Of a stretch of DNA of 55,053 nucleotides, positions 13,358 to 43,916 are shown in pieces. Made by a program: the position numbers and the translations under genes. Below the pieces are notes generated by a model, which saw nothing but the letters and a program-made list of their open reading frames with translations, had not been told where the DNA came from and made no database searches. The DNA comes from an uncultured Gammaproteobacteria bacterium (GTDB taxonomy: Bacteria > Patescibacteriota > Microgenomatia > UBA12405). The stretch spans positions 1 to 55,053 of the forward strand of contig CAYPBP010000005.1 of the NCBI GenBank assembly GCA_964408995.1, given 5' to 3'. The first letter of the stretch is position 1, and every line of letters begins with the position of its first letter.

Positions 13358-13364
13358 TTCACTT

Positions 13365-13596
13365 CCTCCCCTGTCAAGGGGAGGCCAGGAGGGGTTTAAA
13401 TATATAAAATATATGTAGTAATTATTACATAATAATTAATTTAATGCTCCCCTGTCAAGGGGAGCTGTCCCGATTCGTCAATTCAAACCCTTCCCCAACC
13501 CCTTCCCTTGACAGGGCAGGGATAAAATATAATTTTATTTAAATTACAGCTCCCCTGTCAAGGGGAGCTGTCCCGCAACTGCGGGACCAAGGGGTT
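13365..13596. repeat. Cluster of four family A palindromes upstream of DUF559
   Basis: Cores ccctgtcaaggg/cccttgacaggg at ~13369, 13450, 13505, 13552. Confidence 0.88.
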
Positions 13597-24001: not shown

Positions 24002-24630
24002 TAACAAATCATAGCACAAAAGCACCTTTTTTCAATAAATTAGCAATAAATTAAGGAAACTGCTAATAAAGATTTTGTTTAATAAAAAAGCTTAAAGTAG
24101 GCATTTATTACAAAAAATCAAAGCTAAAAAGGCCAAAATTTAACCTAAAAAATATTTAATCAACCCAAAATTAGGCAAAACAGAGCAAATAAATACCTTT
24201 TAATGCTTTGTCCTTCTTTGTATATCAAATAGTCTCAAATTATAACCGTAAATATTTTCCTCAAAAAAACAAATAACAAGCACTTTTTTAAAAAAAATAA
24301 AAAAAATTGAGTAATTTTTTAACAAAATTAAATCATCTTTATACCCAAAAAGTATATCAATTAATATCTTTTAAGATATACCGCATTTCTCCGCATCAAT
24401 TCCATTTTTAAAAATTAAAAATTGGATATTTAGAATTATTTTATATTAGATTGATAGTAGATGTACTAAGCGTGATAATCATCGTGAAAGTATAAGTTTT
24501 AAATTAGAAATAAGAAAAATTTTTACAAGATAGTATCAAAAAACATCATTAAAATGCTAAAAAATACCTATTGACAGCCTTTTTCTAATAGTAGATAGTT
24601 ATATTAATTAATTATTAATTTATATAAACA

Positions 24631-24765: not shown

Positions 24766-25209
24766 ATGACTGCCCAAATCTTTGAATCCTACCAAAACTG
24801 GCTTAAAGCAAGATCTTATTCCAGTGCCACCATTAGAAACTACTTAGTTGACCTTAGAAAATACTTTCTTTTCACTAATCGAGATTCAGACGAGATATCA
24901 GATAACATTTTCAATTCAGACAATTTAAGCTCTTACTTTCAAAACATTAACCAAGACCAAAATTATAAACGTTTTTTAGCTTCGCTCTCTAAATTCTTTC
25001 AGTTTGCCTTAGATCAAAAACTAATTTCCAAAAGTCCTTTCAAAGAAGCTCTAAAAAATAATCAAGAAATAAAAGGCCATGATATTCCATCGGCTATAAA
25101 TTTATATAAACAACAGCTTGTTGCTAAAAAATCATCTCCATCAACTATACGAAACTATATCAACGACATTCATCAATTTATTAATTGGGCTTCAAGTGAA
25201 CCTAAATAA
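24766..25209 (+). CDS. Integrase core-binding (SAM-like) domain protein, 1.5 domains, no catalytic domain
   Basis: WLKARSYSSATIRNYLVDLRKY...KRFLASLSKFFQF...SPF, then QLVAKKSSPSTIRNYINDIHQFINW. Confidence 0.8.
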   Translation: MTAQIFESYQNWLKARSYSSATIRNYLVDLRKYFLFTNRDSDEISDNIFNSDNLSSYFQNINQDQNYKRFLASLSKFFQFALDQKLISKSPFKEALKNNQEIKGHDIPSAINLYKQQLVAKKSSPSTIRNYINDIHQFINWASSEPK

Positions 25210-34200: not shown

Positions 34201-37200
34201 TCAAATTAAACTTGGTGGAACATTAACTGAAAATACCTCTATTAGTCTTTCATCATTTGGATTATCTTTCTTAGGTTTAGGTAATACTCAATCACTTTAT
34301 ATTGCTTCAAGTGGTTATGTTGGTATTGGTACCACAAATCCTTCAGCTAAACTTACTATCAAAGGAGATTCTAACCAATCCACTTCCGATTTTACTTTAC
34401 TAAATGGTGATGACACTATTGGTTTAGAAATAAGGGCTGGAAATACCAATAAAGGTAATATCTTTATTGGTAAAGATGTTGGAAATTCGACAGTTGATTT
34501 TTATTCAAGTAACAACACTGCCATAGGAAATCAATCTTTTTATAAAAATACCTATGGAAATAGCAACACTGCTTTAGGCAATCAATCTCTTTATAGTAAT
34601 GTAAATGGAGATAGCAACACCGCACTAGGAAATAGTTCTCTCTATAATAATACCTATGGAAGTAAAAACATTGCTTTGGGCAGTGAATCTCTTTATAGTA
34701 ATATTGGTGGAGACAAGAATATTGCTTTAGGCAATCAATCTCTTTATAGTAATATAAATGGAGATAGCAACCTCGCACTAGGAATCAAATCTCTTTATAA
34801 TAATATCAGCGGAAATCAAAATATAGCTATAGGAGAGCTTTCTCTTGAAGAGAATATCAGCGGAAATAACAACATTGCTATAGGAATAGGTTCTCTTAAG
34901 AGAAATACCATTGGAAATAAAAATATTGCCATAGGAAATGGAACTCTTGTTGGTAATACTAGTGGGAATAGTAATATTGCCATAGGAACTGGATCTCTTG
35001 TTGGTAATACTAGTGGGAATAGTAATATTGCCATAGGAACTGGATCTCTTATGAATAATGCAGAAGGATCTGAAAATACTGCTTTCGGTAATTATTCACT
35101 TACTAATAATACTATTGGAGAACTTAATACTGCTATGGGCAGTGGATCTCTTGGTGGTAATATTACTGGAACATATAATACTGCTATAGGTGGTTATTCT
35201 CTTACGACAAACATTGGTGGAACTCAAAACACCGCCATAGGAACTGGATCTCTTATGAATAATGCAAATGGATCTGATAATACTGCTGTAGGAGCTATGT
35301 CTCTTTTAAACATTACAACTGGATCTAATAATACTGTTTTAGGATCTAACAGTCTTTTAAATGGAACAAATCTTAATTCTAATATTGCCATTGGTTATCA
35401 AGCTGGTTATTTATTGGGGATTGGCTCTAGTAATATTTTTATTGGTAATGATATTGGTGCTTCAGGTGATTACGATAATAGTCTTTACATCGGTCATGGT
35501 ACTAACCCAATTATTTTTGGTAATTTAGCTAATGGTAATATCGGTATTGGTACTACTAATCCTTCCAAAAAGTTAGACGTTATTGGCGATGCTTCAATAT
35601 CAACCAATCTAACCATTGGTGGTAGTTTAGTTTCTGTTGGATCAACTAATCTAGTTACCAATCTTAATGCTCAATACCTTGGTGGTATTGGTGCTTCTGA
35701 ATTTGTTGGTATAGGTCAAACTGCTCCTTTCATTTATACTGCCACTAATGGTCTAACCCTAGCTTCTAATCAGTTTAAACTCGGTGGAGAATTAACTGAA
35801 ACTACTAGGTTAAATATTGGCTCAACTGAAGTTCTATATATATCTTCTACTGGTCTCATTGGTATCGGTACTACTAATCCAACAAATACTTTAAAAGTAT
35901 TTAACTCAACTGCTGGCATTGAATCTGCTCCTCTAATTGTTCAACAAGGTATTGCTTACGCTAGTCCTTATACCCAATATATTCAAACATGGAAAAATAG
36001 CGCTGGAACAAACGTTGCTCATATGAGAGCTGACGGATCTTTAACTACAAATAATAATAAATCAACAATATATCAAGCAACAGGCACTGGTTCAACTACA
36101 ATTCCAGTTTTTTCAAATAGTAGCGCAAATGCTGGTATCTATTTTCCATCAACAACTAACTTGGGTTTTGTCACTAATAGAACTGAGAGAATGAAAATAA
36201 CTGATACTGGCCTCATTGGTATTGGTACCACTAATCCAATTTACAAACTTGATGTCATTGGTGATGCTTCAATATCAACCAATCTAACCATTGGTGGTAG
36301 TTTAGTTTCTGTTGGTTCAACTAATTTAGTTACCAATCTTAATGCTCAATATCTAGGTGGTATTGGTGCTTCTGGATTTGTTGGTATAGGTCAAACTGGT
36401 GATTTTATTACTACTTTAACTAATGGAGTTGGTATTACTATTACTGGATCAGGTGTTAGTCGAAATATTACTTTTGATTATGATTCTTCTTTATTGGCTA
36501 CTGATAACAAAATAGGTCTTAACTTAGCTTCCAATAATATCTGGACTGCACTTCAAACATTTACTAATGGTATTGGTGTTAGTGGTGATGCTAACTTTAC
36601 TAATAATCTAACCATTGGTGGTACTTTAGTTTCTGTTGGATCAACTAATCTAGTTACCAATCTTAATGCTCAATACCTTGGTGGTATTGGTGCTTCTGAA
36701 TTTGTTGGTATAGGTCAAACTGGTGATTTCATTACTACTTTAACTAATGGAATTGGTATCACTATTACTGGATCAGGTGTTAGTCGAAATATTGCTTTTG
36801 ATTATAATACTTCTTTATTGGCTACTGATAATAAAATAGGTCTTAACTTAGCTTCCAATAATATCTGGACTGGACTTCAAACATTTACTAATGGTATTGG
36901 AGTTAGTGGTGATGCTAATTTAACTAACAATCTAACCATTGGTGGTACTTTAGTTTCTGTTGGATCAACTAATCTAGTTACCAATCTTAATGCTCAATAC
37001 CTTGGTGGTATTGGTGCTTCTGGATTCGTTGGTATTGGTCAAACTGGAGATTTCATCACTAGTCTTAGTGTTGGTGGCAGTGGTTTATCTATTGAAGGTA
37101 GTGGAATTGGTAGAACTCTTACTAACACTGGATTAGTTGATATTACCAACACTACTCTTATCCGTAGTGGTTCTGATGGTAACTATACTGTTGGTCTTAA

Positions 37201-39475
37201 CTTAGCTTCCAATAATATCTGGACTGCACTTCAAACATTTACTAATGGTATTGGTGTTAGTGGTGATGCTAACTTTACTAATAATCTAACCATTGGTGGT
37301 ACTTTAGTTTCTGTTGGATCAACTAATCTAGTTACCAATCTTAATGCTGATTTATTAGATGGTTATAATTCTTCTAGTTTCATTTACACCGCCACTAATG
37401 GTCTAACCCTAGCTTCTAATCAGTTTAAACTTGGTGGACTTTTAACTCAAAATACTGATATTGGATTGTCTGGTTTTACCTTAAGTTTTTCTGATGGTGG
37501 CAACACCTTAGTTTCCTTTAGTAATAGTGGTAACACTTTTTATAACCCAACTACATTTGCTTCTGGTGGTGATGTTTCTATTGCTTATAACTTAAATCTT
37601 ACTAATTCTACTGGTTCAAACATTAATACTGCTGGTCCAATTTCTATAAATGCTGGTGAAACATTTAATTCCAGTAATTTAACTCTCCAAACCTATAACG
37701 CTGGAAAAATAATTCTTAATTCATCTAATCTTTGGAATGATGGTACTAACTTTGGTATTGGTACCACCACCCCTTTATATGCCTTAGATGTTTTAGCATC
37801 AGGCACCACTTTAGTTGCTCGTTTTGGAAGCAGTGAAGGTAGTAGTTGTACTTTTAATGGAGATGGCACTCTTATGTGTAGTTCTGATTCTCGTCTTAAA
37901 ACTAATATTAACAATATTGATTATGGTTTAGATACTTTATCTCAATTAAGAGCTGTTGATTTTAATTGGAAAACTGATTCATCTAACACTTTAAAAAGTC
38001 TTGGATTTATCGCTCAAGAAGTTGAATCTCTTGTTCCTAAGCTAGTAATGACCGATACTAATGGCCATAAACAATTAAACACTATTGGACTTGTTCCAAT
38101 AATAGTCAAATCCATTCAAGAACAACAAGTTCAAATTGAAGACTTAAAATCTAGTCTAAACATCACTTCCACTGGTCAAATAAATGTCACTTCTAATATC
38201 TCTGATAAAGTCTTAGCTTCTCTTGGTTATTCCGGTGCCAAAAACGAGATAGAAAATGCTAGTTATTCCATCACCAACACTACTGGACAAACAGTTTCTC
38301 GAATTGGTCAATTTAGTCAAATCGCCTCTGCTAAAATAAAAGCCGGTCTAATCTCTACCACTAATCTTATTGCTGACAATTTAGTTGCCAAAAATATTAT
38401 TACTAATAATATAGTTTCTCCAAAAGCCACTATTAACGAGCTAACCGCTGAAAAAATAACCTCTACAGAAATAACTGCTGATGAAGTTACTGTTTCTAAT
38501 ACATTAACTACTAATCAACTAATTACTAATAATCTAGAAGCTAGTGAAGCTAGCGTATCTAATTTATATGCCGATAACATCATCACTAAAGACGGTTCCA
38601 TCTCCGATGTTATGGCCAACAAAGTTTCATCTCTTCGAGATGAACTTACTAATTTAATTGCCTCTAGTCAATCAACTCCAAGTGCTATTAGTGGCACTTC
38701 AATTATGTCTCTTTCCTCTGGTTGGTATATGGACATCGCCAGTGATTCAGCCAAAATAGAAGGTGATTTAGCTCTTACCAACAATTTAATTGTTGGTGCT
38801 AAATTAACTGTCAATGGCGACACTCAACTTGGAAATGCCTTTATAACTGGCACTTTCACCACTGGTGAAATTGCTATTAAAGAAAATTTTATTGAAACCA
38901 CTAATACTGCTCTTTATTTACAACCATCCAATACTGGTTCAGTTCACATTATGGGAGACACTTTAGTTATTGCCGACAATGGTGAAGTCCAAATCAATGG
39001 AGATTTAAAAATTTCTGGTTCTCTTATTGCCAATCTCATCACTGCCAATGAAATCCAAACTGATAAATTAACCACCAACGAACTAAACTCTAATCAATTA
39101 ACCTCAAACGAATTAACCTCCGACAAACTAAACATTGCCACCGATTCTGCTAGTCAAATAATTATTGCTGAATCTGGATTTGGATACTTAGCCACCTCCT
39201 CTGCTCAATTAGTTTCCAATGCTACTGCTGGCACTTCCGTTCTTCCAGCTGATAAAACTGAATTGATTATTAAAAATAATAAATTAACACAAAATTCTAT
39301 CGTTTATTTAACTCCAGTTGGCTCAACCAATAATCAAGTTGTCTATCTTAAAGAGAAAATGGTTTATTCTGAAACCGAGTTACAAAACAATCCTGACTTA
39401 CAAAACTACTTCATCATCGCTCTCGACCAATACCTAGATAAAGATATTACCATCAATTGGTGGATTATCAACTAA
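25118..39475 (+). CDS. Giant membrane-anchored tail-fibre/adhesin-like protein (functional start GTG 25196 or frameshift fusion with upstream ORF)
   Basis: Half core-binding domain, TM at ~25535-25588, FQGRLTD...WLEI..PRQPIATVAYA module, GIGTT repeats, 21 FG-GAP-like repeats, 17-aa NTAxG repeats, SSDSRLK...GFIAQEV S74-like domain, WWIIN end. Confidence 0.92.
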   Translation: MLLKNHLHQLYETISTTFINLLIGLQVNLNNLFTTSRLNEYTAFLKSTNLSDASLKRKLSSLSSFQKFLVKKKLIQPDSNPLTFQTPSFSNETIKKNIENSINQPELKANFLKKIISRFIPDTKYLIPNTKPNNFLFRYITIFSLFAIGVGLGFTLYQQAFIQSNKNLAYSNANNPVKAGRFLSFQGRLTDSSGNPIVAETEIYFQLWNKDIGGTMLYTTLDNGNSQTVIPDENGIFSITIGKSHGPEIPADVFSENAEIWLEITVDDETMEPRQPIATVAYALNAETLQGLPPDAGGYKDTVLVIDSEGNLNLGETSPTIKSISGTMGIEGQAILIKSSEGSGGNIDINPDGQGIVQLINEASDGSLVVSNTNLIMGNLITGQVNTEERGYNFIDFQNKDAFGDLTSRFSVNSYGDAYIDNDLTVSNNADIGGSLSVSDYSIFSKGIGITGNSAFNNNLSIGGTLTLSQNPGAGKILQSDAFGNASWVDNNGSGVGVSYFSGSGLTLNNDTFKLGGALTENMRLNIGNTEAFYIQNSTGNIGLGTTNPTAKLSVVGDIGANQLNITTSGETFGPGTIIYSANSNLSGSINTGDFNNDGKTDLIINDQYFYRVRVFTGNGDGTYQNSTIHQTNDISYFDPSSITIADFNNDNYDDFAITSSNYSDQIIVFINNQNSDFDSGTSYLVDGYSSSINSGDFNGDGFIDLLTNNPDSNNISVFLNNNGTFGTGVTYFSDTYVYNTEISDFNSDGKDDLIYLDGYSGDLTVVLSNNGTFGTGVTYPTNNYGDIEINDFNFDGKNDFVVYDGYSLDVYLNNNGTFNKSTFNISTSGVSQINSGDFNGDDYPDLVTNTDSNNIAVLINNNGTFESNIYYPTNGDISTSITTGDFDSDNKDEIVSINGNTKVSFFNERPNISIITDNIGNIGIGTTSNSLYKLTVVGDALFSNKLSIGGTLSANYISSTNIYNTNSVSTSSLYTTSFRLANNVHNGYILTSDVWGNGIWTAPSTIGTNYVAGNGITINSSNQFKLGGRLTENTSIGVSSFGLSFLGLGNTQALYIASTGRIGIGTTSPSYKLHVIGNGYFSTNLSVGGTLTLTQGAGANKILQSDASGNASWVSPSSIGTTYVAGNGITLNSSNQFKLGGNLIENTSIGISSSYLRFTAGNGSTEALYISNTSRVGIGTTNPLSKLSVVGSISGDNLVLAGNVQLNSFAGFNNYLDSSGGLGTGGIQRITSTGNLTNISSIQAGQLNITSDFNFSIGTSYPINIGSSEPSSITSADFNGDGKPDLATANGGSDNITIFINNGNGAYSTGVDYSNNIGSHPWSITSADFNSDGKPDLATANGGKGNITIFTNNGDGTFGTGITTRAPSYSNWHRSIISADFNSDGKPDLATANTGDNKINVYLNNGNGNFINSTNYSVPCQDPSSITSADFNGDGKPDLVTYEQEHSTLCVLTNNGGNSFIGTTNPQPDIGYSQNNIISTDFNGDSKTDLIVTSHKYDGGNTTTMVNILNGIGNSTFGVGASYQMSLDSYTYNNSITTNDFNGDGKPDIATQKMTWDENNYWSYNTVIIPNNGDNTFGLGITYPSTYGWQNSIISNDFNSDGKDDLAYISGSTINVNLNNSNPTLFTSISGNVGIGTSNPLSKLSVIGDASISSNLSVGGSLTLTQGAQEGYILTSDSNGNAYWAISGSGGIGTVNNGLTLSNYQLQLGGNLIQNTSIGVSSFGLSFLSSGDTQALYIASNGSIGIGTTNPTAKLSVVGNAYFADNVDLGTTNQTAKLEITGNIKINSISHTLDTGTTYPENNDYGRPWGITSADFNGDNKIDIATVDRSQHKFFIFNNTNNGNFDVGASYYVESPTSITTGNFNNDDKPDLAIVSWQTIGVFTNDGSGNFDTGTTYPSHTYAYNNKIITADFNNDSKDDIAVSSYNGDSFEIFTNDGSGNFGTGITYPSTSVRSIASDDLDGDGKKDLVTFNNGYITIFTNDGSGNFDTGTTYSGSGGATNFNGSPMAIADFNNDSFKDIATLNNDLFIFTNDGSGNFGTGVSSPVNAGAGDGMVATDLDGDGRIDLVSTDNNNQINFLKNNGNHSFSKDSSYQTIENRPIDITSADFNNDGFNDIATANVWGKGITVFLNKIDGINPTFFTSNGGFVGIGTTNPTQKLDIVGDINLTGTIFANNTSGSNGQILSSTGIGLSWINPSSVGTTYTAGIGLSLANNTFHLNLASTNTWTGIQNFSTGATISSLSVGGTLSVTGNSTFTNNLSVGGTLSVTGRSTFSNGIGITGNSTFTNNLSVGNTLFVNSKLKIYNGGVNTNNYVLTSDNNGNATWKQNIPVLYTSSNGITLSGTEFKLGGRLTENTSINVSSSFLRFTAGNGSTEALYIANTGRIGLGTTSPSKKLDVVGDINLSGTIFATGTSGSNGQVLTSTGAGLAWIDSAAIGTSFSVTNGLSSISNNVFGLGGTLTQNTSIGVSSSFLKFTAGNGSTEALYIANTGRIGLGTTSPSKKLDVVGDINLSGTIFATGTSGSNGQVLTSTGAGLAWIDSAAIGTSFSVTNGLSSISNNVFGLGGTLTQNTSIGVSSSYLRFTAGSNTESLYISNTGRVGIGTASPSQKLHVIGDAYFASNVGFGVASPTKKIDVAGDIKLTGKLFVGSAGTSGSDNQVLITSGDSLNWVDASSINQPLSFMNGLSEISTNTIGLGGTLTKTTSVGTSSFDLFFLDSSNNKSLYIASNGNIGIGNTTSQSFKLHVTGDTLIDGITQLNGNVGVRDNLAVGSLTMNYGSSSGYILTSDSIGNASWIAPNSIGIGTSYAAGNGLNISNNQFKLGGNLTEATSIGISSSSLRFTAGNGSTEALYIASDGKIGIGTTAPTSKLTVIGGASISTNLTIGGSLVSVGSTNLVTNLNAQYLGGIGASEFVGIGQTGDFITTLTNGIGITITGSGVSRNITFDYDSSLLATGNKIGLNLGSSNTWTGLQSFNNINIGGTLTLGVGASAGYVLTSDESGNAYWAFNPDTDTTYTAGNGITLVGTQIKLGGTLTENTSISLSSFGLSFLGLGNTQSLYIASSGYVGIGTTNPSAKLTIKGDSNQSTSDFTLLNGDDTIGLEIRAGNTNKGNIFIGKDVGNSTVDFYSSNNTAIGNQSFYKNTYGNSNTALGNQSLYSNVNGDSNTALGNSSLYNNTYGSKNIALGSESLYSNIGGDKNIALGNQSLYSNINGDSNLALGIKSLYNNISGNQNIAIGELSLEENISGNNNIAIGIGSLKRNTIGNKNIAIGNGTLVGNTSGNSNIAIGTGSLVGNTSGNSNIAIGTGSLMNNAEGSENTAFGNYSLTNNTIGELNTAMGSGSLGGNITGTYNTAIGGYSLTTNIGGTQNTAIGTGSLMNNANGSDNTAVGAMSLLNITTGSNNTVLGSNSLLNGTNLNSNIAIGYQAGYLLGIGSSNIFIGNDIGASGDYDNSLYIGHGTNPIIFGNLANGNIGIGTTNPSKKLDVIGDASISTNLTIGGSLVSVGSTNLVTNLNAQYLGGIGASEFVGIGQTAPFIYTATNGLTLASNQFKLGGELTETTRLNIGSTEVLYISSTGLIGIGTTNPTNTLKVFNSTAGIESAPLIVQQGIAYASPYTQYIQTWKNSAGTNVAHMRADGSLTTNNNKSTIYQATGTGSTTIPVFSNSSANAGIYFPSTTNLGFVTNRTERMKITDTGLIGIGTTNPIYKLDVIGDASISTNLTIGGSLVSVGSTNLVTNLNAQYLGGIGASGFVGIGQTGDFITTLTNGVGITITGSGVSRNITFDYDSSLLATDNKIGLNLASNNIWTALQTFTNGIGVSGDANFTNNLTIGGTLVSVGSTNLVTNLNAQYLGGIGASEFVGIGQTGDFITTLTNGIGITITGSGVSRNIAFDYNTSLLATDNKIGLNLASNNIWTGLQTFTNGIGVSGDANLTNNLTIGGTLVSVGSTNLVTNLNAQYLGGIGASGFVGIGQTGDFITSLSVGGSGLSIEGSGIGRTLTNTGLVDITNTTLIRSGSDGNYTVGLNLASNNIWTALQTFTNGIGVSGDANFTNNLTIGGTLVSVGSTNLVTNLNADLLDGYNSSSFIYTATNGLTLASNQFKLGGLLTQNTDIGLSGFTLSFSDGGNTLVSFSNSGNTFYNPTTFASGGDVSIAYNLNLTNSTGSNINTAGPISINAGETFNSSNLTLQTYNAGKIILNSSNLWNDGTNFGIGTTTPLYALDVLASGTTLVARFGSSEGSSCTFNGDGTLMCSSDSRLKTNINNIDYGLDTLSQLRAVDFNWKTDSSNTLKSLGFIAQEVESLVPKLVMTDTNGHKQLNTIGLVPIIVKSIQEQQVQIEDLKSSLNITSTGQINVTSNISDKVLASLGYSGAKNEIENASYSITNTTGQTVSRIGQFSQIASAKIKAGLISTTNLIADNLVAKNIITNNIVSPKATINELTAEKITSTEITADEVTVSNTLTTNQLITNNLEASEASVSNLYADNIITKDGSISDVMANKVSSLRDELTNLIASSQSTPSAISGTSIMSLSSGWYMDIASDSAKIEGDLALTNNLIVGAKLTVNGDTQLGNAFITGTFTTGEIAIKENFIETTNTALYLQPSNTGSVHIMGDTLVIADNGEVQINGDLKISGSLIANLITANEIQTDKLTTNELNSNQLTSNELTSDKLNIATDSASQIIIAESGFGYLATSSAQLVSNATAGTSVLPADKTELIIKNNKLTQNSIVYLTPVGSTNNQVVYLKEKMVYSETELQNNPDLQNYFIIALDQYLDKDITINWWIIN
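32221..32861 (+). repeat. Tandem 324-bp coding duplication
   Basis: 32221-32537 identical to 32545-32861; the track shows identical antisense ORFs 324 bp apart. Confidence 0.92.
34508..35425 (+). repeat. Eighteen 17-residue NTAxG beta-solenoid repeats (51-bp period)
   Basis: e.g. NSNIAIGTGSLVGNTSG; one unit duplicated at DNA level from 34944. Confidence 0.85.
36281..37340 (+). repeat. Tandem coding repeats of 324, 324 and 354 bp, with dispersed copies at 33764 and 35606
   Basis: aatctaaccattggtggta recurs at 33764, 35606, 36281, 36605, 36929, 37283. Confidence 0.88.
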
Positions 39476-39592
39476 CCCACTCGCCCTTCAGGCACCCTCC
39501 CTGACAAGGGAGGGGTTAGGGGTGGGTTAAAAAAACCAAATTTCAAGCCTCCCTGTCAAGGGAGGTGGCGAGTGAAACGAGACGGAGGGTTT
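39476..39592. repeat. Inverted doublet of family A repeats
   Basis: cccactcgcccttcaggcaccctccctgacaagggaggg ... cctccctgtcaagggaggtggcgagtgaaacgagacggaggg. Confidence 0.85.
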
Positions 39593-39605
39593 TAAACCAA
39601 AGAAA

Positions 39606-39656
39606 TGCCGGCAGTGTGTTTTTTTGTTTTTAAATACAAAATAACACCTGCCGGCA
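39606..39656. terminator. Long hairpin between convergent genes (terminator or miniature element)
   Basis: tgccggcag-tgtgtt...aacac-ctgccggca. Confidence 0.55.
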
Positions 39657-39670
39657 AAATCTAAAAATCT

Positions 39671-40408
39671 TTATTGTGCTAATAACCCAAAATTGTCCAA
39701 ACACCCATTAGAGACAATAATACCCGTCGATCCTGTTCTTATCCCTGTTGAGATGTTTCGAACCACCTTGGTATTATTAAAATAAATACTTATAGTTCCG
39801 GCAACATCTGCCACAACTTTAAGTTGATACCACTTATCGCTATCAAATGTACGTCTATTGCCAGTGTAATACGTAACCCCTTCAATCACTTCTTCCATTT
39901 GAACACTATCATTGTCTGGATAAGCTTTTATCATGATATAGTTTTGTGGACTTTCATACCACAAAACTACTCCAGCATACCCACCATCCATTACATTGAA
40001 ATCAACCTTAACTGTTTGGTTTGACGCCTGAACATCATTCAATAATAACATCCCCAATTCAAGATTTTTTTGCTTCAATACACCATCTTCAATTAACCAA
40101 TTTCCAGAAACGCTATTCCACTTTGACAAATTACCAGAAAATTCATCCGATTCAAGAATATTTAAACCAGCTGCATTTTGCAAAGTAATCAAAGCATCAA
40201 TCGAATTAATAGAACCATTAAAGTCAGTATCATAACGCCATAAATCTTCACTAGCCGGAGGACCTACTAAACCAGCTGCATTTTGCAAAGTAATCAAAGC
40301 ATCAACCGAATTAACCATTCCATTTTTATTTACATCTCCAAGACCACCATTATCACCTAAAGCTCTAGTCTCAAAAGCTCCTACATTTAAAGACATAGTA
40401 GTTGCCAA
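39671..40408 (-). CDS. Dockerin-like tandem repeat plus beta-sandwich (LamG/DUF1080-like) protein; start uncertain
   Basis: GDVNKNGMVNSVDALITLQ and DTDFNGSINSIDALITLQ (37-bp identical DNA); DEFSGNLSKW...GNW...GSTGI. Confidence 0.8.
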   Translation of the reverse strand: MATTMSLNVGAFETRALGDNGGLGDVNKNGMVNSVDALITLQNAAGLVGPPASEDLWRYDTDFNGSINSIDALITLQNAAGLNILESDEFSGNLSKWNSVSGNWLIEDGVLKQKNLELGMLLLNDVQASNQTVKVDFNVMDGGYAGVVLWYESPQNYIMIKAYPDNDSVQMEEVIEGVTYYTGNRRTFDSDKWYQLKVVADVAGTISIYFNNTKVVRNISTGIRTGSTGIIVSNGCLDNFGLLAQ

Positions 40409-40574
40409 GACAGCTGAAGTTAATCTCTCCTTAAAACTTATTTTTGTTTATAAACAACTTATAATATAAGGGTATTATACACTAAAAAACAAAATCATTT
40501 CAAACTTACTGTCAATTTGTGTATGTTTTCATTTAATACCTAACTAGCAGCAGTCAGTTCTGTTAAACTAATTT

Positions 40575-41804
40575 ATGGAATATACTCAAGAACAAATCGA
40601 AAAACTAAAATCTCTAGGTGTCGATGTAAAAATAGAAACTCCCCGTCTTGTCAAAGAAGGGGTTGGGGGAAGATTGAACCTGACATCTGAAATTAAACAT
40701 TCTAAATCCTCAGTTTTCCCATTATTATCTATTTCAGGAATAACTCTCCTTTCTTTCTCAGGCTTAATTTTATTAAAAAACCAAAATAATGATTCTGCTT
40801 TTAAAAATCCAACCAAAATTCAAGATCCAAAATCTGACGTCTCAATAACTCCAACTCAAGTACCTAAATCTATCCAACATTATCTTTTAACTTCACAACA
40901 ATATTTTTCAAGAGCTTTGGAACAACAAAGCTCGCAGAACCCCGCAACCGCGGGGTCAAATCCTAATCAAACTTTGGATCTCATAAATCAATCTATAATC
41001 GCCGCCAGCGATGCTATTAAAGAATTTCCAAATGACTATCGTGGTTACCAACAAAGAGGTAAAATTTACCAAGCTCTTATTGAATCAAAACCAGATCTTA
41101 TAAATCAATCTATATCAGATATTTCTAGTGCTTTAAAACTAAATCCCAACTCATCTGAAATCACTAAAAACCTTGCCTCTCTCTATGCCAAAAAAGGCGA
41201 TGCTCAAAATACTATTTTATATCTAAATCAAACCGTTGCCCTTGAACCAACCAAAGCCCAAAACTTTTATGATTTAGCTAAGATTCAGCAACAAGCTGGA
41301 TTTCTTAACCAAGCTATTGAAACTTACAATCAATTAATTACCCTAGTCACTGATCCAACTCAAAAATCTCAAATTGAAATCGAAAAATCAGCTTTAGAAA
41401 AATTAATTGCCCAAAACCCAAATCCACCATCAAAAATAAATAATTCATTACCCACAATCGATGATCCACAATCGACAATCAACAATCTTGAAAGTCCTAC
41501 TATTCAAGCCTTAGCTGATGGCGGTTTAATTATTGCTGCTCCAGAAGAATCTAATAAAATTAAAGTTACCAACCAAACTGATTCTAATTCTTTTTCTGGC
41601 AACTCAATTCTCCCTTCTGGTCAAAAAGAAATAACTATCACCAATAATAATATTTCTTCCACTTCTCCAGTCTATGTCACCGCCACCAAAGGTGGTAAAA
41701 ACCAAAACCTTCAAGTGTTAAGTAAATCCAAAGAATCATTCATTGTAGGTCTAAATTCCCCTATTTCCGAAGACATTGAATTCAAGTGGTGGATAATAAA
41801 TTAA
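40575..41804 (+). CDS. TM-anchored TPR protein with C-terminal WWIIN domain
   Basis: TM ISGITLLSFSGLILL, TPR-like helices (YRGYQQRGKIY, NFYDLAKIQ), C-terminus homologous to that of the giant protein. Confidence 0.85.
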   Translation: MEYTQEQIEKLKSLGVDVKIETPRLVKEGVGGRLNLTSEIKHSKSSVFPLLSISGITLLSFSGLILLKNQNNDSAFKNPTKIQDPKSDVSITPTQVPKSIQHYLLTSQQYFSRALEQQSSQNPATAGSNPNQTLDLINQSIIAASDAIKEFPNDYRGYQQRGKIYQALIESKPDLINQSISDISSALKLNPNSSEITKNLASLYAKKGDAQNTILYLNQTVALEPTKAQNFYDLAKIQQQAGFLNQAIETYNQLITLVTDPTQKSQIEIEKSALEKLIAQNPNPPSKINNSLPTIDDPQSTINNLESPTIQALADGGLIIAAPEESNKIKVTNQTDSNSFSGNSILPSGQKEITITNNNISSTSPVYVTATKGGKNQNLQVLSKSKESFIVGLNSPISEDIEFKWWIIN

Positions 41805-41811
41805 ATTAAAA

Positions 41812-41925
41812 CCCTCCGCCCTTCGGGCATTTCCCTTGACAAGGAGGCTTTCTTCTTGGGGTCATCATTTCATTTTAAGTCGCCCTGTCAAGGGAGATGT
41901 CGAACGAAGTGAGACAGAGGGTTTT
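41812..41925. repeat. Inverted doublet of family A repeats
   Basis: ccctccgcccttcgggcatttcccttgacaagg ... cgccctgtcaagggagatgtcgaacgaagtgagacagaggg. Confidence 0.85.
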
Positions 41926-41927
41926 GT

Positions 41928-43916
41928 TTATTGAATAGGTATTGGTGTTGGTTCAGCTTTTGGTGGTTTTAATTCTTCAGCTGGCACATTTACCTTCTCT
42001 TCTTTACCCATTGTGGGTAATGGAGTTTGAGTTTTTAATATTTCTGGACTTGTAGGAACAGACCCTTGTGTCTGTGCTTCTTTATTCTTAGCATTCAACA
42101 CCTCCAATTCTTTCTTCCAAGTTTCCAATTCTTTTGAAGCTTTATCATAATCACTAGAATCAACTGGAACTAATCTCAAAGCATTTTCTAAATAAGTCAC
42201 TGCCACATCTAATTTATTCAAATTCTTAGAACTGTTTGCCAAATTGTACCAACCATTAGCAAAGTCACTTTTATTTTTAACTACTTCTTCAAAAGATCTA
42301 TCTGCTTGTTGGAAATTATTAGCTGCATAAAAAAGTCCTCCCATTTCTAAATGAAGAATTGGATTGATTGGATCTAAAATAATTGCCTGTTGATAAGCTT
42401 GGTAACTCCAATCAGCCGCCCCATCAACTAAGCCAATTAAAGATTTATAAATTACAGCTAAGTTATACCAATAAGCTGAATTATTTTTATCTAAAGCAAT
42501 AGCTGACTTGGCTTCCCTAACCGATTGTTGAACTAAAACTGATGCTTTTTCTTTTTGTTCAGCTGTAATATCTTTTTCACTTAATAAAGCTTGAGCCAAA
42601 GCTAAATTAGTCTGAGAATATATTTTTCTATAATTCGCCAAGTTTGGATTAGCTGCAATTGCTTTTATTTGTAAGTTGTAAGTTTTTTCTCCATCATTTT
42701 TACTTGCTGCCAAAAGTGATTGCTTCATATAAATATCACCCATTAACATTCTTGTCATCCAATAACCACCACCTGCACTTACTACCAAAACCAATAAAGC
42801 AATTAAATACGGCATCACATTGAAATTCTTTTCTCCAACATTCAGTATTAATTTTGTTTCTTTAGATTCCAAACCAATAGAAACTAATAACCAAGTTAAT
42901 AAAAATACAGATATTAAATTTAATGGTAAAAACAAAACCACAGCTAAAAATAAAAGTACTTGCCAAAATCTAATATTCTTTTTTAATCTCAAAACCACTA
43001 ATACTAAATAAAAAACTAAAACTAAAGCTACAATTCCTAATTCTGTCCAAATCTGTAAAATACCCATTGATGATCCACTAAAAACATTAGTCCAATACTT
43101 AGTTAAATTAAAACTTGCCGGTCTAAATAAGTTAAAAGCTTCAGTAAAATTACCAATTCCTTGACCCAAAATAGGACTTCTTTTAAAAGCTTCAACTGCA
43201 ATTATCCAAGCGCTATTTCTATCTAAAACTCCCCAACCTAATTTAAAAGTTTTATATATATCTACAAAAAATAACAATGAGAAAAATGCTACTGCCATGG
43301 CATCAGTTAAATAACTCATTATTTCTTCTTTTGTTTTTATTTTAGCTAACAATTTTCTTAACCAACCAAAAATCAGAAATGCCAACAAAGTCATTTCTGC
43401 CAACAAAGAACCAGTTAAAGACCAAGCTGCTGTAATTGATATTAATGGATTAGTTTTAGGGATAAGTAAAGGCAATTTGTTGGTTGGCAATACAAAAACA
43501 ATTAAAGAAATTACGCTAATTATTAATCCTGCTATAGTTAAAAACAAAAACTGTTTCTCTATTTCCTTTTTATCGCTAGTTTGTAACCAAACAAAAAATA
43601 GTAAAAACAAAGACGCTATTGTTCCCATTCCCATTGGCAACATTAGAGATGTCATTTTAATCCCTGTTTCCAATCTTAAAAATGAAATTACACTCCAAAT
43701 AGTAAATATTAAAAATAACCAAAATAACTTATTGGTTTTGATTACTTTTTCTTTAGCTAATATCAAATTAATCGTCCACAAAATCAAAGCTACAATTGCC
43801 ATCACCATCAAGCTTAAATTTTTACCAAATCCAAAAGCATCACTAATGTTTGGAATAAAAATAATTGGAAATAATAAAAAGATTACTCTTAGGTAATATT
43901 TGAGAATAGTATTCAT
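41928..43916 (-). CDS. O-antigen ligase (Wzy_C)-like membrane protein with C-terminal TPRs
   Basis: About 12 TM helices, periplasmic loop AFKRSPILGQGIGNF...LQIWTELG, TPR tail. Confidence 0.82.
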   Translation of the reverse strand: MNTILKYYLRVIFLLFPIIFIPNISDAFGFGKNLSLMVMAIVALILWTINLILAKEKVIKTNKLFWLFLIFTIWSVISFLRLETGIKMTSLMLPMGMGTIASLFLLFFVWLQTSDKKEIEKQFLFLTIAGLIISVISLIVFVLPTNKLPLLIPKTNPLISITAAWSLTGSLLAEMTLLAFLIFGWLRKLLAKIKTKEEIMSYLTDAMAVAFFSLLFFVDIYKTFKLGWGVLDRNSAWIIAVEAFKRSPILGQGIGNFTEAFNLFRPASFNLTKYWTNVFSGSSMGILQIWTELGIVALVLVFYLVLVVLRLKKNIRFWQVLLFLAVVLFLPLNLISVFLLTWLLVSIGLESKETKLILNVGEKNFNVMPYLIALLVLVVSAGGGYWMTRMLMGDIYMKQSLLAASKNDGEKTYNLQIKAIAANPNLANYRKIYSQTNLALAQALLSEKDITAEQKEKASVLVQQSVREAKSAIALDKNNSAYWYNLAVIYKSLIGLVDGAADWSYQAYQQAIILDPINPILHLEMGGLFYAANNFQQADRSFEEVVKNKSDFANGWYNLANSSKNLNKLDVAVTYLENALRLVPVDSSDYDKASKELETWKKELEVLNAKNKEAQTQGSVPTSPEILKTQTPLPTMGKEEKVNVPAEELKPPKAEPTPIPIQ

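What the first reader, a model, noticed from the sequence alone, without database searches (positions are those of the whole stretch)
39200..41804. Giant protein and neighbouring TPR protein end in the same WWIIN domain
Giant: AGTSVLPADKTELIIKNNKLTQNSIVYLTPVGSTNNQVVYLKEK...FIIALDQYLDKDITINWWIIN. TPR protein: SGNSILPSGQKEITITNNNISSTSPVYVTATKGGKNQNLQVLSKSKESFIVGLNSPISEDIEFKWWIIN. Both stops are followed directly by a family A doublet. A shared terminal module on a fibre and on a membrane-anchored TPR scaffold suggests a hetero-oligomerisation or sorting tag, for example capturing the cleaved C-terminal piece (inference).
Basis: partly seen in the sequence, partly recalled or inferred. Interest (0 to 1): 0.65.

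Follow-up and report, generated by a model that had tools for sequence, protein, structure and literature searches.

The report
Phage-type fibre cap shared by neighbours
A giant cell-surface fibre protein of an uncultured ultra-small bacterium and the membrane-anchored TPR protein encoded next to it both end in the same small domain, which is a relative of the cap found at the tip of phage tailspikes; in the fibre it always sits behind a self-cutting folding module, and the gene pair is conserved in many related genomes, so the two proteins probably work together, though how is not shown.

Summary
Observation confirmed. The giant ORF (25118/25196..39475) and the TPR ORF (40575..41804) both end in ...WWIIN. 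Their last ~100 residues are homologous (BLASTP E 1e-10; profile-profile E 1.5e-33).

The module has a known fold. It is a divergent relative of Pfam PF24146 (K1-lyase_C), the seven-stranded beta-sandwich that caps phage tailspike trimers. The AF2 model and Foldseek hits to 7EEA, 7W1C and 9K4A support this.

In 80 related Patescibacteria genomes the module is always C-terminal, with one locus per genome. It is therefore not a general sorting tag.

In 57 of 64 giants with enough sequence, the cap lies 490-800 aa downstream of a self-cleaving intramolecular chaperone. That is S74 here (SDSRLK, S4256) and a Peptidase_G2-like DxAE module in other orthologues.

The TM-TPR-cap partner follows the giant in 38 of 81 loci. 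It is an old paralogue, with no sign of gene conversion. Both caps are predicted to be extracytoplasmic.

My best reading is that the cap is a trimerising or docking module of the cleaved assembly cassette, and that the tethered partner uses its copy to associate with that cassette. This association is inferred and was not tested. The main rival is that both caps bind a common glycan. This is a new variant of a known kind, of moderate interest.

The parts
24766..25209 (+). Small upstream ORF (147 aa) with two XerC/D-type N-terminal SAM-like domains. It overlaps the start of the giant gene.
   Evidence: Pfam Phage_int_SAM_1, E 1.2e-12, two stretches. Conserved upstream of the giant in 8 loci that include the giant's 5' end.
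25196..39475 (+). Giant surface-fibre gene. It is 4759 aa from GTG 25196 (start inferred from P0032's length); the longest ORF starts at TTG 25118 (4785 aa, the numbering used here).
   Evidence: ORF list. Pfam: FG-GAP_3 E 6.6e-93, FG-GAP E 9.3e-61, Peptidase_S74 E 6.1e-14. Database protein P0032, 4759 aa, matches the S74/stalk region at E 9e-111 and 2e-214, 26 residues lower in numbering.
25217..25591 (+). Cytoplasmic N-terminal SAM-like domain (aa 34-73), followed by the single N-terminal transmembrane anchor (aa 134-158).
   Evidence: Weak Phage_int_SAM_1 and XerC hits. It is the only hydrophobic segment in the protein, with 18 K/R against 7 D/E before it. Similar N-terminal sequences begin distant giants P0077, P0123, P0129 and P0156; this likeness was read by eye, not scored.
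26873..31546 (+). FG-GAP (integrin-like beta-propeller blade) repeat region of the giant protein.
   Evidence: Repeat families D8, D10, D11 and D12. Pfam FG-GAP_3, 14 stretches.
37883..38047 (+). Peptidase_S74 intramolecular-chaperone, self-cleavage module (aa 4256-4310). It has an intact SDxxxK motif (S4256...K4261). The predicted cut would release S4256-N4785, 530 aa.
   Evidence: Pfam PF13884, 52.5 bits against a cut-off of 22. Sequence ...LMCSSDSRLKTNI.... PHROG tail-fibre families match this stretch. The SDxxxK motif and cleavage behaviour are from PMC10769870.
38048..39127 (+). Rest of the chaperone helix plus a ~330-aa stalk, with repetitive beta-helix or coiled segments including a bactofilin-like stretch. 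It is conserved in all giant orthologues.
   Evidence: phmmer with aa 4311-4670 finds 52 locus ORFs and 102 database proteins, each ending ~100-150 aa before the C-terminus. Bactofilin hit E 1.2e-4 here, and 38.5 bits (above cut-off) in L023.
39128..39472 (+). Giant-type cap module (aa 4671-4785). It has a conserved IIIAE strand and a 7-stranded beta-sandwich ending in NWWIIN.
   Evidence: AF2 pLDDT above 90 over residues 23-115. Foldseek top PDB hits are 7eea, 7w1c/7w1d and 9k4a. PF24146 matches orthologue P0002 at 29.1 bits against a cut-off of 27. The window sequence itself scores only 10.4 bits.
39476..39600 (.). GC-rich palindromic REP/MITE-like element (the 'family A doublet') directly after the giant stop.
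   Evidence: Sequence. Motif statistics. Hairpin -55.5 kcal/mol, z -3.97.
40575..41804 (+). Partner gene, 409 aa: N-in membrane anchor, extracytoplasmic TPR solenoid, flexible linker and cap.
   Evidence: Translation. TPR families. AF2 of the full protein. Orthologues lie downstream of the giant in 37 other loci.
40710..40778 (+). Partner transmembrane or signal-anchor segment (aa 46-68).
   Evidence: Kyte-Doolittle mean 1.93; the only such segment. Conserved as PLLSISGxTxxSFGxLxL in 19 orthologues.
40872..41414 (+). Partner TPR solenoid (aa 100-280).
   Evidence: AF2 helices 100-280 with pLDDT above 90. Foldseek finds only generic TPR proteins such as CTPR, MamA and OGT.
41505..41801 (+). Partner-type cap module (aa 311-409). 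It has an LIIAAPE strand and a beta-sandwich ending in KWWIIN.
   Evidence: HMM E 2e-42. AF2 strands 339-408 with pLDDT 84-90. 15 of 24 partner caps hit PF24146 at E<=1, best 2.6e-4. hhalign against giant caps E 1.5e-33.
41805..41925 (.). Second copy of the palindromic REP/MITE-like element, directly after the partner stop.
   Evidence: Hairpin -55.5 kcal/mol, z -6.6.
41928..43916 (-). O-antigen-ligase-like (Wzy_C) polytopic membrane protein with a C-terminal TPR domain. It is the most constant neighbour of the giant gene.
   Evidence: Pfam Wzy_C (21.4 bits, below the 31.7 cut-off) plus TPR families. Homologue present in 61 of 81 loci. Where the partner is absent it directly follows the giant.

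Best explanation
What it is:
- The 'WWIIN domain' is a ~100-residue, seven-stranded beta-sandwich. It is a divergent relative of the phage tailspike C-terminal cap (Pfam PF24146, K1-lyase_C). In solved tailspikes this domain sits at the extreme C-terminus, and three copies pack into a dome on the trimer axis.
- The window is chromosomal DNA of a Patescibacteria (Microgenomates, Shapiro-/Woesebacteria-like) bacterium.
- There the cap ends a conserved C-terminal cassette of a membrane-anchored giant surface fibre. The cassette is a self-cleaving intramolecular chaperone, a ~330-aa stalk, and the cap.
- The chaperone is S74 in this window. In other orthologues a non-homologous Peptidase_G2-like module occupies the same place.
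- The next gene on the same strand encodes an N-in single-pass membrane protein. Its extracytoplasmic part is a TPR solenoid, a flexible linker and an ancient paralogue of the cap.

How I think it works (inferred):
- The cap is a trimerising and docking module. It nucleates the trimer of the cassette at the membrane-distal C-termini.
- This lets the chaperone module fold the upstream fibre and then cut the cassette off, here before S4256, releasing 530 aa.
- The membrane-tethered TPR protein uses its own copy of the cap to associate with that cassette. It could act as an assembly platform, as a dock that keeps the cleaved piece at the cell surface, or both.

Shown here: homology of the two caps; their fold and nearest structures; strict C-terminal position; intact cleavage motifs; the alternation of S74 and G2-like modules; conserved synteny; predicted topology.

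Inferred: that cleavage occurs, that the caps trimerise, and that fibre and partner caps contact each other.
For: - The two caps are homologous.
- Fold. AF2 gives pLDDT above 90 for the sandwich. The best PDB matches are the C-terminal domains of the Pam1 tailspike 7eea, K1 lyase 7w1c/7w1d and the K64-1 depolymerase 9k4a, with probability 0.94-1.0. BFVD matches at E 1e-5 to 1e-3 include proteins named 'K1 lyase C-terminal domain-containing'.
- Sequence-level support. PF24146 hits giant orthologue P0002 above the Pfam cut-off, 9 of 22 family members and 15 of 24 partner caps. A profile also hits the last 60 residues of 7eea.
- The K1 lyase paper describes a 4+3-stranded sandwich whose three copies form a dome at the trimer interface (PMC8822698). 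A review states that depolymerase C-terminal domains are essential for trimerisation (PMC11652154).
- The cap is always at the extreme C-terminus, both in 81 loci and in the 150 best of 2304 protein clusters.
- S74 scores above the Pfam cut-off and has the SDxxxK motif.
- The G2-like module has an invariant DxAE motif. It aligns from residue 1 (DFAEYF) of the phi29 autochaperone chain 3gqh, E 0.0028, and 5 of 9 members hit PF11962.
- 57 of 64 scorable giants carry one or the other module, 490-800 aa (outliers to ~1100) before the C-terminus. All 29 scorable partner-bearing loci carry one.
- The partner is present in 38 of 81 loci. It is always downstream on the same strand, and often within a few bases of the giant stop, as in L008, L012, L021, L023 and L031.
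- The two cap lineages are old paralogues. Giant-to-partner identity is 0.336 within a genome and 0.324 between genomes.
- Both caps are outside the membrane by the positive-inside rule.
- The strand conserved in both lineages (I-I-A) is left unpacked in both monomer models (pLDDT about 40-55). That would be expected for an inter-chain element.
Against: - No multimer prediction or experiment was available. Cap-cap contact between fibre and partner is pure inference.
- 43 of 81 loci show no partner within 10 kb. Three of these are cut by a contig end or fused, and some partners could lie elsewhere in the genome. The fibre can evidently be made without a partner.
- In distant lineages the partner's terminal strand drifts (EWRAIHE, FWRIVE, YWVINH) while the giant keeps NWWIIN. 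This is not what a strictly symmetric mixed trimer would predict.
- A cassette already trimerised by its own cap and chaperone has no obvious free interface for a fourth chain.
- In the window itself the two genes are separated by an opposite-strand gene and a strong hairpin, so they are not co-transcribed here.
- The window's own giant cap is below Pfam's threshold for PF24146 (10.4 bits against 27).
- Foldseek E-values against the PDB are only 0.03-0.1.
- The G2-like assignment is sub-threshold: 21 bits against a cut-off of 25 for the one member whose score was shown.
Confidence: 0.45

Rival explanations
1. Common-ligand module. Each protein trimerises on its own, and both caps act as lectin/CBM-like tips that bind the same glycan. 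The glycan could be on the bacterium's own envelope (possibly the product handled by the adjacent Wzy_C-TPR protein) or on the host cell. The two proteins would then be co-localised without touching each other.
For: - C-terminal domains of phage depolymerases are described as aiding receptor recognition, and some are CBM- or lectin-like (PMC11652154, PMC10653864).
- An O-antigen-ligase-like gene is the most constant neighbour, present in 61 of 81 loci.
- Residues conserved in both lineages include polar N, Q and K plus aromatic Y, F and WW, a mix typical of sugar-binding sites.
- The partner's cap can drift in its last strand while the fold is kept.
Against: - In K1 lyase the two carbohydrate sites described are in the beta-helix, and the paper gives the terminal sandwich a structural, trimer-locking role.
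- The Wzy_C match here is below the Pfam cut-off.
- A ligand-binding tip that is cut away from the fibre by the chaperone module would not help the fibre itself to bind.
Confidence: 0.28
2. No functional coupling. The partner merely acquired the fibre's cap by duplication and uses it as a generic homotrimerisation domain for a TPR protein with an unrelated job. Adjacency would reflect the origin of the duplication and the generally conserved gene order of this lineage.
For: - Gene order in this block is conserved as a whole: giant, Wzy_C-TPR, M23/LysM, Rho.
- The partner is missing in about half of the loci.
- There is no excess within-genome similarity of the two caps.
Against: - The duplication is old, yet the partner has stayed immediately downstream of the giant across Shapiro-, Woese- and Gottesmanbacteria-like and other lineages.
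- The five terminal residues and other core positions remain identical in both lineages in most genomes.
- No free-standing copy of the cap on any third kind of protein was seen among the 165 retrieved family members: 102 shared the giants' stalk, 21 were partner-type, and the rest, read by eye, were fragments or distant giants.
Confidence: 0.17
3. C-terminal sorting or secretion tag. WWIIN-COOH and its domain would be recognised by an export or anchoring machine, in the way the T9SS C-terminal domain or PEP-CTERM/LPXTG signals are.
For: - The position is strictly C-terminal and the last five residues are nearly invariant.
- T9SS C-terminal domains are also ~80-100-aa beta-sandwiches (from general knowledge of that system, not tested here).
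Against: - There are only one or two carriers per locus, and one locus per genome in 80 genomes. Sorting tags typically mark many cargo proteins.
- There is no TM helix or basic tail.
- NCBIfam finds no sorting-signal family.
- The terminal strand is a confident core strand of the fold.
- The same fold sits at the C-terminus of phage tailspikes, which are not sorted.
- Both proteins already have N-terminal signal anchors.
Confidence: 0.05

Closest known systems
Pfam PF24146 K1-lyase_C, the C-terminal beta-sandwich cap of phage tailspikes and depolymerases (K1 lyase 7W1C/7W1D, cyanophage Pam1 tailspike 7EEA, phage K64-1 S2-4 9K4A)
   Same: Extreme C-terminal position on a fibre or spike. About 70-100 aa. 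Seven strands in two sheets. Best structural matches in the PDB and BFVD. HMM match above the cut-off for a close orthologue.
   Different: It is carried by a cellular (Patescibacteria) membrane-anchored giant protein, not a virion protein. It lies behind a self-cleaving chaperone, not directly on a catalytic beta-helix. It has a lineage-specific invariant ending, NWWIIN. A paralogue sits on a non-fibre TM-TPR protein. The window's own sequences fall below Pfam's threshold.
Phage intramolecular chaperone / autocleavage modules: Peptidase_S74 (endosialidase, T5 pb1) and Peptidase_G2 (phi29 preneck appendage gp12)
   Same: S74 has the SDxxxK motif and scores above the Pfam cut-off. In orthologues a G2-like module with DxAE aligns to the first residues of the cleaved phi29 autochaperone. 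Both lie after a tail-fibre-like repeat region.
   Different: In phages these modules are the last thing in the protein and are discarded. Here they are internal and are followed by 370-650 conserved residues (stalk plus cap). Two non-homologous modules alternate at the same position within one orthologous family.
Bdellovibrio MAT (mosaic adhesive trimer) fibres (PMC10769870)
   Same: Cellular, surface-exposed, phage-like trimeric fibres. They end either in an S74 chaperone or in a trimerising beta-sandwich tip, with exchange of terminal modules during evolution.
   Different: MAT proteins are ~1000 aa and have either S74 or a beta-sandwich tip, not both in series. They have a signal peptide and a conserved N-terminal beta-rich domain, where this protein has a SAM-like domain and a TM anchor. 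No TPR partner sharing the tip is described.
MYRF (eukaryotic membrane-bound transcription factor with an internal S74 domain)
   Same: The S74 module is internal, so trimerisation-dependent self-cleavage separates two functional parts of a membrane protein. The presence of S74 in MyRF is noted in PMC10769870; the rest is from general knowledge.
   Different: In MYRF the released part is the N-terminal, cytoplasmic one and the anchor is C-terminal. Here the anchor is N-terminal and the released part is extracellular.
Phage tail-fibre assembly proteins encoded just downstream of the fibre gene (Tfa, T4 gp38-type)
   Same: Gene order, with a helper directly after the fibre gene. The proposed role is at the fibre's C-terminal tip (analogy from general phage biology).
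   Different: No sequence or fold relation was tested or found. Those helpers are soluble and do not carry a copy of the fibre's own tip domain or TPRs.
C-terminal sorting domains (T9SS CTD, PEP-CTERM, LPXTG)
   Same: C-terminal position and a conserved terminal motif.
   Different: One or two carriers per genome. No TM or basic tail. No family match. The fold is shared with unsorted phage proteins.

Membership tests
PF24146 K1-lyase_C (tailspike C-terminal cap) | Sequence match to the Pfam model at its gathering score (27 bits) | tested here: inconclusive
   The window's giant cap scores 10.4 bits, E 0.95. PF24146 was not listed for the window's partner cap at E<=1. A close giant orthologue, P0002, scores 29.1 bits and passes. 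9 of 22 and 15 of 24 family members match at relaxed E, and PF24146 is the top family in both scans.
PF24146 K1-lyase_C (tailspike C-terminal cap) | Two-sheet (4+3) beta-sandwich at the extreme C-terminus of a fibre or spike protein | tested here: met
   AF2 model with 7 strands and pLDDT above 90. Top Foldseek PDB hits are the C-terminal domains of 7eea, 7w1c/d and 9k4a, probability 0.94-1.0. Description of the K1 lyase domain in PMC8822698. Always C-terminal.
PF24146 K1-lyase_C (tailspike C-terminal cap) | Three copies form a dome on the trimer axis | not testable with these tools
   Only monomer prediction was available.
Peptidase_S74 intramolecular chaperone | Pfam match above the cut-off and an SDxxxK Ser-Lys motif | tested here: met
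   52.5 bits against 22. S4256-D-S-R-L-K4261. Motif definition from PMC10769870.
Peptidase_S74 intramolecular chaperone | Located at the C-terminal end of the fibre and removed after folding | tested here: not met
   The module is at aa 4256-4310 of 4785, so 475 residues follow it. Cleavage itself is not testable here.
Peptidase_G2 (phi29 gp12-type) autochaperone, in orthologues lacking S74 | Match to PF11962 or the phi29 autochaperone, including the cleavage-site D-x-A-E | tested here: inconclusive
   5 of 9 members hit PF11962, best E 1.7e-5. The one member whose score was shown has 21 bits, below the cut-off of 25. The profile hits 3gqh_A from its residue 1, E 0.0028. D, A and E are invariant.
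C-terminal sorting signals (T9SS CTD, PEP-CTERM, LPXTG and similar) | The tag marks many different cargo proteins per genome and co-occurs with a processing enzyme | tested here: not met
   2 carriers in the 55-kb window. 1-2 carriers per locus, and 80 loci from 80 assemblies. The search patterns required a WWIIN-like motif, so divergent carriers could have been missed.
C-terminal sorting signals (T9SS CTD, PEP-CTERM, LPXTG and similar) | Match to a curated sorting-domain model, or a motif plus TM helix plus basic tail | tested here: not met
   No NCBIfam family for the cap. The sequence ends in a core beta-strand.
TPR repeat proteins (partner) | Tandem helix-turn-helix TPR motifs forming a solenoid | tested here: met
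   TPR_17 at 30.8 bits, above its cut-off. AF2 helical solenoid over 100-280. Foldseek hits to CTPR, MamA and OGT TPRs, E about 1e-5.
Bdellovibrio MAT fibre family | Conserved ~130-aa beta-rich domain right after the signal peptide | not tested
   No MAT sequence was compared. The N-terminus here is a SAM-like domain plus a TM anchor.

The most novel reading that the evidence does not exclude
The cassette and its partner form a previously undescribed two-component system for building giant fibres outside the cell in Patescibacteria. A membrane-tethered TPR protein carrying a copy of the fibre's own cap recognises the fibre's C-terminal cap by like-with-like association. It holds three nascent C-termini together at the membrane so that an interchangeable self-cleaving chaperone (S74 or G2-type) can fold the >4000-residue fibre. 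It then keeps the cut-off 530-aa piece.
Probability: 0.25. Interest if true: 0.7.

Novelty: new variant of a known kind. Interest (0 to 1): 0.5.

Why it matters
Ultra-small Patescibacteria (CPR) bacteria are thought to live attached to other cells, and their giant surface proteins are prime candidates for making that contact. How such proteins are assembled outside a cell with a minimal genome is unknown.

This locus shows that a widespread family of these giants is built from phage tail-fibre parts arranged in an unusual order: a self-cleaving chaperone in the middle, followed by a stalk and a tailspike cap. Two unrelated chaperone types have been swapped at the same position. A membrane TPR protein also carries a second copy of the cap.

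If the cap-cap link is real, it gives a concrete, testable handle on fibre biogenesis in organisms that cannot yet be grown alone. It would also extend the known uses of the tailspike cap domain from virions to cellular proteins. If it is not real, the result still places an unannotated, very conserved C-terminal motif in a known fold family.

Tried and rejected
1. I first tested the 'captures the cleaved piece' idea by asking whether partner presence tracks S74 presence. It does not: 13 of 25 S74-bearing giants and 18 of 41 without S74 have a partner. Pfam confirmed that 8 partner-bearing giants lack S74. I was about to count this against the idea. However, two of those sequences gave weak Peptidase_G2 hits at the same position. 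Follow-up showed that a G2-like self-cleaving module replaces S74 there, so I withdrew that inference.

2. Gene conversion between the two caps is rejected. Within-genome identity equals between-genome identity.

3. I considered that the partner might be a chimera of its two neighbours, with TPRs from the Wzy_C-TPR gene and the cap from the giant. The TPR similarity is only generic: pairwise E 0.009-0.04 and phmmer 1e-4 to 7e-10 to Wzy-TPR proteins of other loci. I keep it as a lead only.

4. Direct sequence similarity to phages was not found. tblastn of the cap against 50,697 phage records gave nothing meaningful, and no PHROG family matches the cap. The relation is visible only by profile and fold.

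5. The 'family A doublet' as a mark of these two genes is rejected. It is a dispersed palindromic element restricted to the window and its two nearest relatives.

6. Foldseek of the whole partner model gave only generic TPR proteins.

7. Literature searches for CPR or Patescibacteria giant proteins with intramolecular chaperones found nothing.

8. A strict regular expression for the S74 motif under-counted S74 and was replaced by HMM searches.

Full report
**The observation**

The window holds a 4785-codon ORF (25118..39475, + strand) and, about 1.1 kb downstream on the same strand, a 409-codon ORF (40575..41804). A 4759-aa database protein, P0032, matches the giant's S74 and stalk regions at E 9e-111 and 2e-214, 26 residues lower in numbering. 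This implies the called start is the in-frame GTG at 25196; that start is inferred from the length difference.

No other ORF in the six frames has this ending. The tails align at 33% identity over 86 residues, E 1e-10. A profile of 18 giant-type tails against a profile of 24 partner-type tails gives hhalign probability 99.9%, E 1.5e-33.

The shared module is about 100-115 residues. It includes a conserved hydrophobic strand (IIIAE in the giant, LIIAAPE in the partner) ahead of the part quoted.

**The 'doublets'**

Each stop codon is followed directly by a GC-rich ~120-nt palindrome. Each folds into one long hairpin (-55.5 kcal/mol, z -4.0 and -6.6). Its core motif occurs 14 times in the window against 0.18 expected, including at 5397 and 12955-13566. 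Among 80 related loci it is present only in the two nearest relatives. It is a dispersed REP/MITE-like element, possibly acting as a terminator, and not a feature of this gene pair.

**What the domain is**

A word-indexed search with the two tails found 21 proteins from Woese- and Shapirobacteria-type metagenome bins. They fall into two groups: giant tails ending (I/V)NWWIIN and TPR-protein tails ending FKWWIIN. Four of them carried a precomputed Pfam label, PF24146.

Direct scans confirm this. Orthologue P0002 matches PF24146 (K1-lyase_C, the C-terminal domain of the Klebsiella phage K1 capsule lyase) over the whole 70-position model, at 29.1 bits against a gathering score of 27. In addition:
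- 9 of 22 family members match it at relaxed thresholds, always as the top family.
- 15 of 24 partner caps match it likewise, best E 2.6e-4.
- The window's own giant cap reaches only 10.4 bits.

A profile search of PDB sequences picks the last ~60 residues of the cyanophage Pam1 tailspike 7EEA, E 0.14.

AlphaFold2 on the giant tail with the 22-sequence alignment gives a confident model (pLDDT above 90 for residues 23-115) with seven strands and one short helix. Foldseek ranks the following first, with probabilities 0.94-1.0 although E is only 0.03-0.1:
- the C-terminal domain of 7EEA;
- K1 lyase 7W1C/7W1D;
- the K64-1 depolymerase 9K4A.

Against predicted viral structures there are 17 hits at E<=1e-3. 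Slightly weaker hits include several proteins named 'K1 capsule-specific polysaccharide lyase C-terminal domain-containing'.

The K1 lyase paper describes this domain as a four-plus-three-stranded sandwich. [quoted passage not shown] A review says the C-terminal domain of such depolymerases is essential for trimerisation and may help receptor recognition (PMC11652154).

So the 'WWIIN domain' is a divergent, lineage-specific branch of a known phage tip domain. Plain BLAST against 50,697 phage genomes and PHROG profiles do not see it.

**Where it occurs**

An exhaustive HMM search of 1.84 billion representative proteins found 2304 clusters at E<=1e-3 and 1032 at E<=1e-10. In the 150 listed, the match always reaches the protein's end. 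Most of the 165 proteins in hand end in (N/K)WW(I/L/V)(I/V)N.

A scan of one genome per species found 145 encoding stretches. The best 80 loci come from 80 different assemblies. By gene content they are Patescibacteria (Shapiro-, Woese-, Gottesmanbacteria, Microgenomates and others). Many records are titled 'uncultured Gammaproteobacteria' or 'Pseudomonadales', which I take to be mislabelling.

Contigs reach 998 kb. The window itself carries pyruvate formate-lyase, PPDK, Rho and ribosomal protein S1-type genes. This is therefore chromosomal DNA and not a prophage.

Within the 81 loci (window included), an HMM of the domain finds it only at the C-terminus of large ORFs and of one downstream ORF. 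38 loci have two carriers and 43 have one.

**The gene pair**

In every two-carrier locus, the second carrier lies downstream of the giant on the same strand and is 280-500 aa long. It is homologous to the window's TPR protein outside the cap as well: phmmer with aa 1-300 gives E from 2e-106 for close relatives down to 1e-3 to 1e-22 for distant ones.

Among the 33 closest relatives, 26 have an intact partner and 3 more are cut by a contig end or fused. In L008, L012, L021, L023 and L031 the partner ORF begins within a few bases of the giant's stop.

The two cap lineages are old paralogues. Giant-to-partner identity is 0.336 within a genome and 0.324 between genomes. By comparison, giant-giant identity is 0.53 and partner-partner identity is 0.46. 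There is thus no gene conversion. The giant's NWWIIN is almost invariant. The partner's last strand drifts in distant lineages to EWRAIHE, FWRIVE, EWRIIN or YWVINH.

**Architecture of the giant and the self-cleaving module**

Read from the N-terminus, the giant has:
- an XerC/D-type SAM-like domain and one transmembrane segment, with 18 K/R against 7 D/E before it, so N-in;
- about 20 FG-GAP blades and many tail-fibre-like repeats;
- a Peptidase_S74 module at aa 4256-4310, 52.5 bits, with an intact SDxxxK motif (S4256...K4261);
- a ~330-residue stalk;
- the cap.

S74 modules are trimerisation chaperones that cut themselves off at the serine (summarised in PMC10769870). The cut would release S4256-N4785, 530 residues, with the cap on the released piece.

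I tested whether the partner goes with S74, and at first it seemed not to. 18 partner-bearing giants lacked S74. Pfam confirmed the absence in eight of them, while two positive controls had it.

Two of those eight, however, gave weak Peptidase_G2 hits at the same position. Aligning that region from nine S74-less giants shows an invariant D-x-A-E. The profile matches the phi29 preneck-appendage autochaperone chain 3GQH from its first residue (DFAEYF), E 0.0028. If that chain is the cleaved fragment (my recollection of the phi29 work, not checked here), the alignment starts at the new N-terminus made by self-cleavage. Five of the nine sequences hit PF11962 (Peptidase_G2, IMC autoproteolytic cleavage domain), best E 1.7e-5. 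The one member whose score was shown is below the curated cut-off.

With iterated HMMs for both modules, the 64 loci offering at least 700 residues of the giant divide as follows:

| Module upstream of the cap | Loci | With partner |
|---|---|---|
| S74 | 24 | 12 |
| G2-like | 33 | 17 |
| Neither detected | 7 | 0 |

The module always begins 490-800 residues before the C-terminus (two outliers near 1100), just upstream of the conserved stalk. Two non-homologous self-cleaving chaperones therefore alternate at one position of one orthologous family. The cap is essentially always on the far side of the predicted cut. I withdrew my first inference accordingly.

**The partner**

The partner has one hydrophobic segment (aa 46-68), conserved in orthologues. 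AlphaFold2 with 19 orthologues gives the following:
- a confident TPR solenoid over 100-280 (pLDDT above 90);
- a low-confidence linker;
- the cap over 339-408 (pLDDT 84-90).

Foldseek of the whole model returns only generic TPR proteins. Topology rules put the TPRs and the cap outside the cytoplasmic membrane, the same side as the giant's cassette.

**How it most likely works**

What is shown:
- the two caps are homologous;
- their fold and nearest structures;
- the strict C-terminal position;
- intact cleavage motifs, and the alternation of two chaperone types;
- old, stable synteny;
- location in the same compartment.

What I infer is as follows. The cap is a trimerising and docking element, as in tailspikes. 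It brings together three C-termini of the giant, so that the chaperone module can fold the upstream fibre and then sever the cassette. The membrane-tethered TPR paralogue uses its own cap to associate with that cassette, as an assembly platform or as a dock for the cleaved piece.

A strand conserved in both lineages (I-I-A) is left unpacked in both monomer models. This fits an inter-chain role.

Several points count against the association:
- There is no multimer evidence.
- The partner is absent near about half of the giants.
- The partner's last strand drifts.
- A closed trimer offers no obvious extra interface.

I put about 0.85-0.9 on the identity and architecture, and about 0.35-0.4 on a direct cap-mediated fibre-partner association.

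**Rivals**

(i) Both caps bind one glycan independently. C-terminal domains of depolymerases are often lectin/CBM-like. An O-antigen-ligase-like Wzy_C-TPR gene is the giant's most constant neighbour, in 61 of 81 loci. But in K1 lyase the sugar sites are in the beta-helix, and a binding tip that is cut off would not serve the fibre.

(ii) There is no coupling, and the cap is merely a trimeriser the partner acquired by duplication.

(iii) The cap is a sorting tag. This is disfavoured: one locus per genome, no TM or basic tail, no curated sorting family, and the terminal strand is a core strand of a fold shared with phage proteins.

**Comparison with what is known**

The closest cellular analogue I found is the Bdellovibrio MAT fibre family. 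These are surface trimers ending either in S74 or in a trimerising beta-sandwich tip, with terminal modules exchanged in evolution (PMC10769870). Here both elements occur in series, the protein is four to five times longer, it has a SAM-like domain and TM anchor at the N-terminus, and a TPR partner shares the tip.

Internal S74 is known from MYRF, but with the opposite topology. I found no paper describing this cassette or the pair in CPR bacteria. That is absence in the searched library only.

**Verdict**

The sorting tag is not supported, and the hetero-complex is untested. I class this as a new variant of a known kind. Interest is moderate, 0.5.

Noticed in passing
window 24766..25591; also P0077, P0123, P0129, P0156: The cytoplasmic N-terminus of the giant is an XerC/D-type 'Phage_int_SAM' core-binding-like domain, followed by the TM anchor. 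A small ORF just upstream (24766..25209) carries two more such domains and overlaps the giant's start. Distant giants begin with similar-looking sequences (read by eye). A DNA-binding-type domain on the inside of a giant surface fibre is odd and unexplained.
   Followed up: partly
window 37883..38047 versus L005, L009, L011, L013, L014, L015, L020, L023, L031 (about 540-650 aa before each giant's stop): Two non-homologous self-cleaving intramolecular chaperones alternate at the same position of one orthologous protein family. They are S74 (SDxxxK) and a Peptidase_G2-like module (DxAE). Of 64 scorable loci, 24 have S74 and 33 have the G2-like module.
   Followed up: yes
window 41928..43916 (-): An O-antigen-ligase-like (Wzy_C, sub-threshold) polytopic membrane protein with C-terminal TPRs neighbours the giant in 61 of 81 loci. 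Where the partner is absent it follows the giant directly (L036 +10 nt, L049 +14, L077 +4). It may glycosylate or otherwise serve the fibre.
   Followed up: partly
window 39476..39600, 41805..41925, 5397, 12955..13566; L001 10587, 10749, 12367, 14871; L002 12252: A GC-rich palindromic REP/MITE-like element with core CCCTG(A/T)CAAGGGAG in an AT-rich genome. It gives 14 motif matches against 0.18 expected. It sits in intergenic positions, folds into ~120-nt hairpins, and is restricted to the window and its two closest relatives.
   Followed up: partly
window 39671..40408 (-): An ORF with a type I dockerin and a 3-keto-disaccharide-hydrolase-like (concanavalin-type) domain is inserted between the giant and the partner on the opposite strand. 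No homologue was found in any of the 80 related loci, so it is a lineage-specific insertion that splits the pair.
   Followed up: partly
window 45106..46752 (-): A 548-aa ORF with no Pfam match and no homologue in the 80 related loci. It sits between the conserved M23/LysM peptidase and Rho genes.
   Followed up: no
window 34451..35317 and 26700..37500 generally: The giant gene is highly repetitive. It has a 51-nt (17-aa) tandem array of 13 or more copies, 324-nt repeats, about 16 copies of a 'GIGTTNPxxKLxVxG' tail-fibre-like unit and about 20 FG-GAP blades. Assembly errors or copy-number variation are likely in such a gene.
   Followed up: no
L024 1..4734: One continuous ORF runs from the giant's stalk and cap into the TPR region and a second, truncated cap. 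It is either a natural read-through fusion of the two genes or an assembly or frameshift artefact.
   Followed up: no
L003-L005, L007, L009 and many others (record titles): Many of the public MAG records holding these loci are titled 'uncultured Gammaproteobacteria' or 'Pseudomonadales'. Their gene content and synteny match Patescibacteria, so the taxonomy labels are probably wrong.
   Followed up: no
window 20996..23584 (+) and 23588..24025 (-): More predicted surface proteins lie just upstream. One is an 862-aa protein with three Laminin_G_3 (concanavalin-like) domains and DUF2341. The other is a 145-aa Big_1 (invasin-like Ig) protein. Homologues of each recur near the giant in a few other loci, 7 and 5 respectively.
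   Followed up: partly
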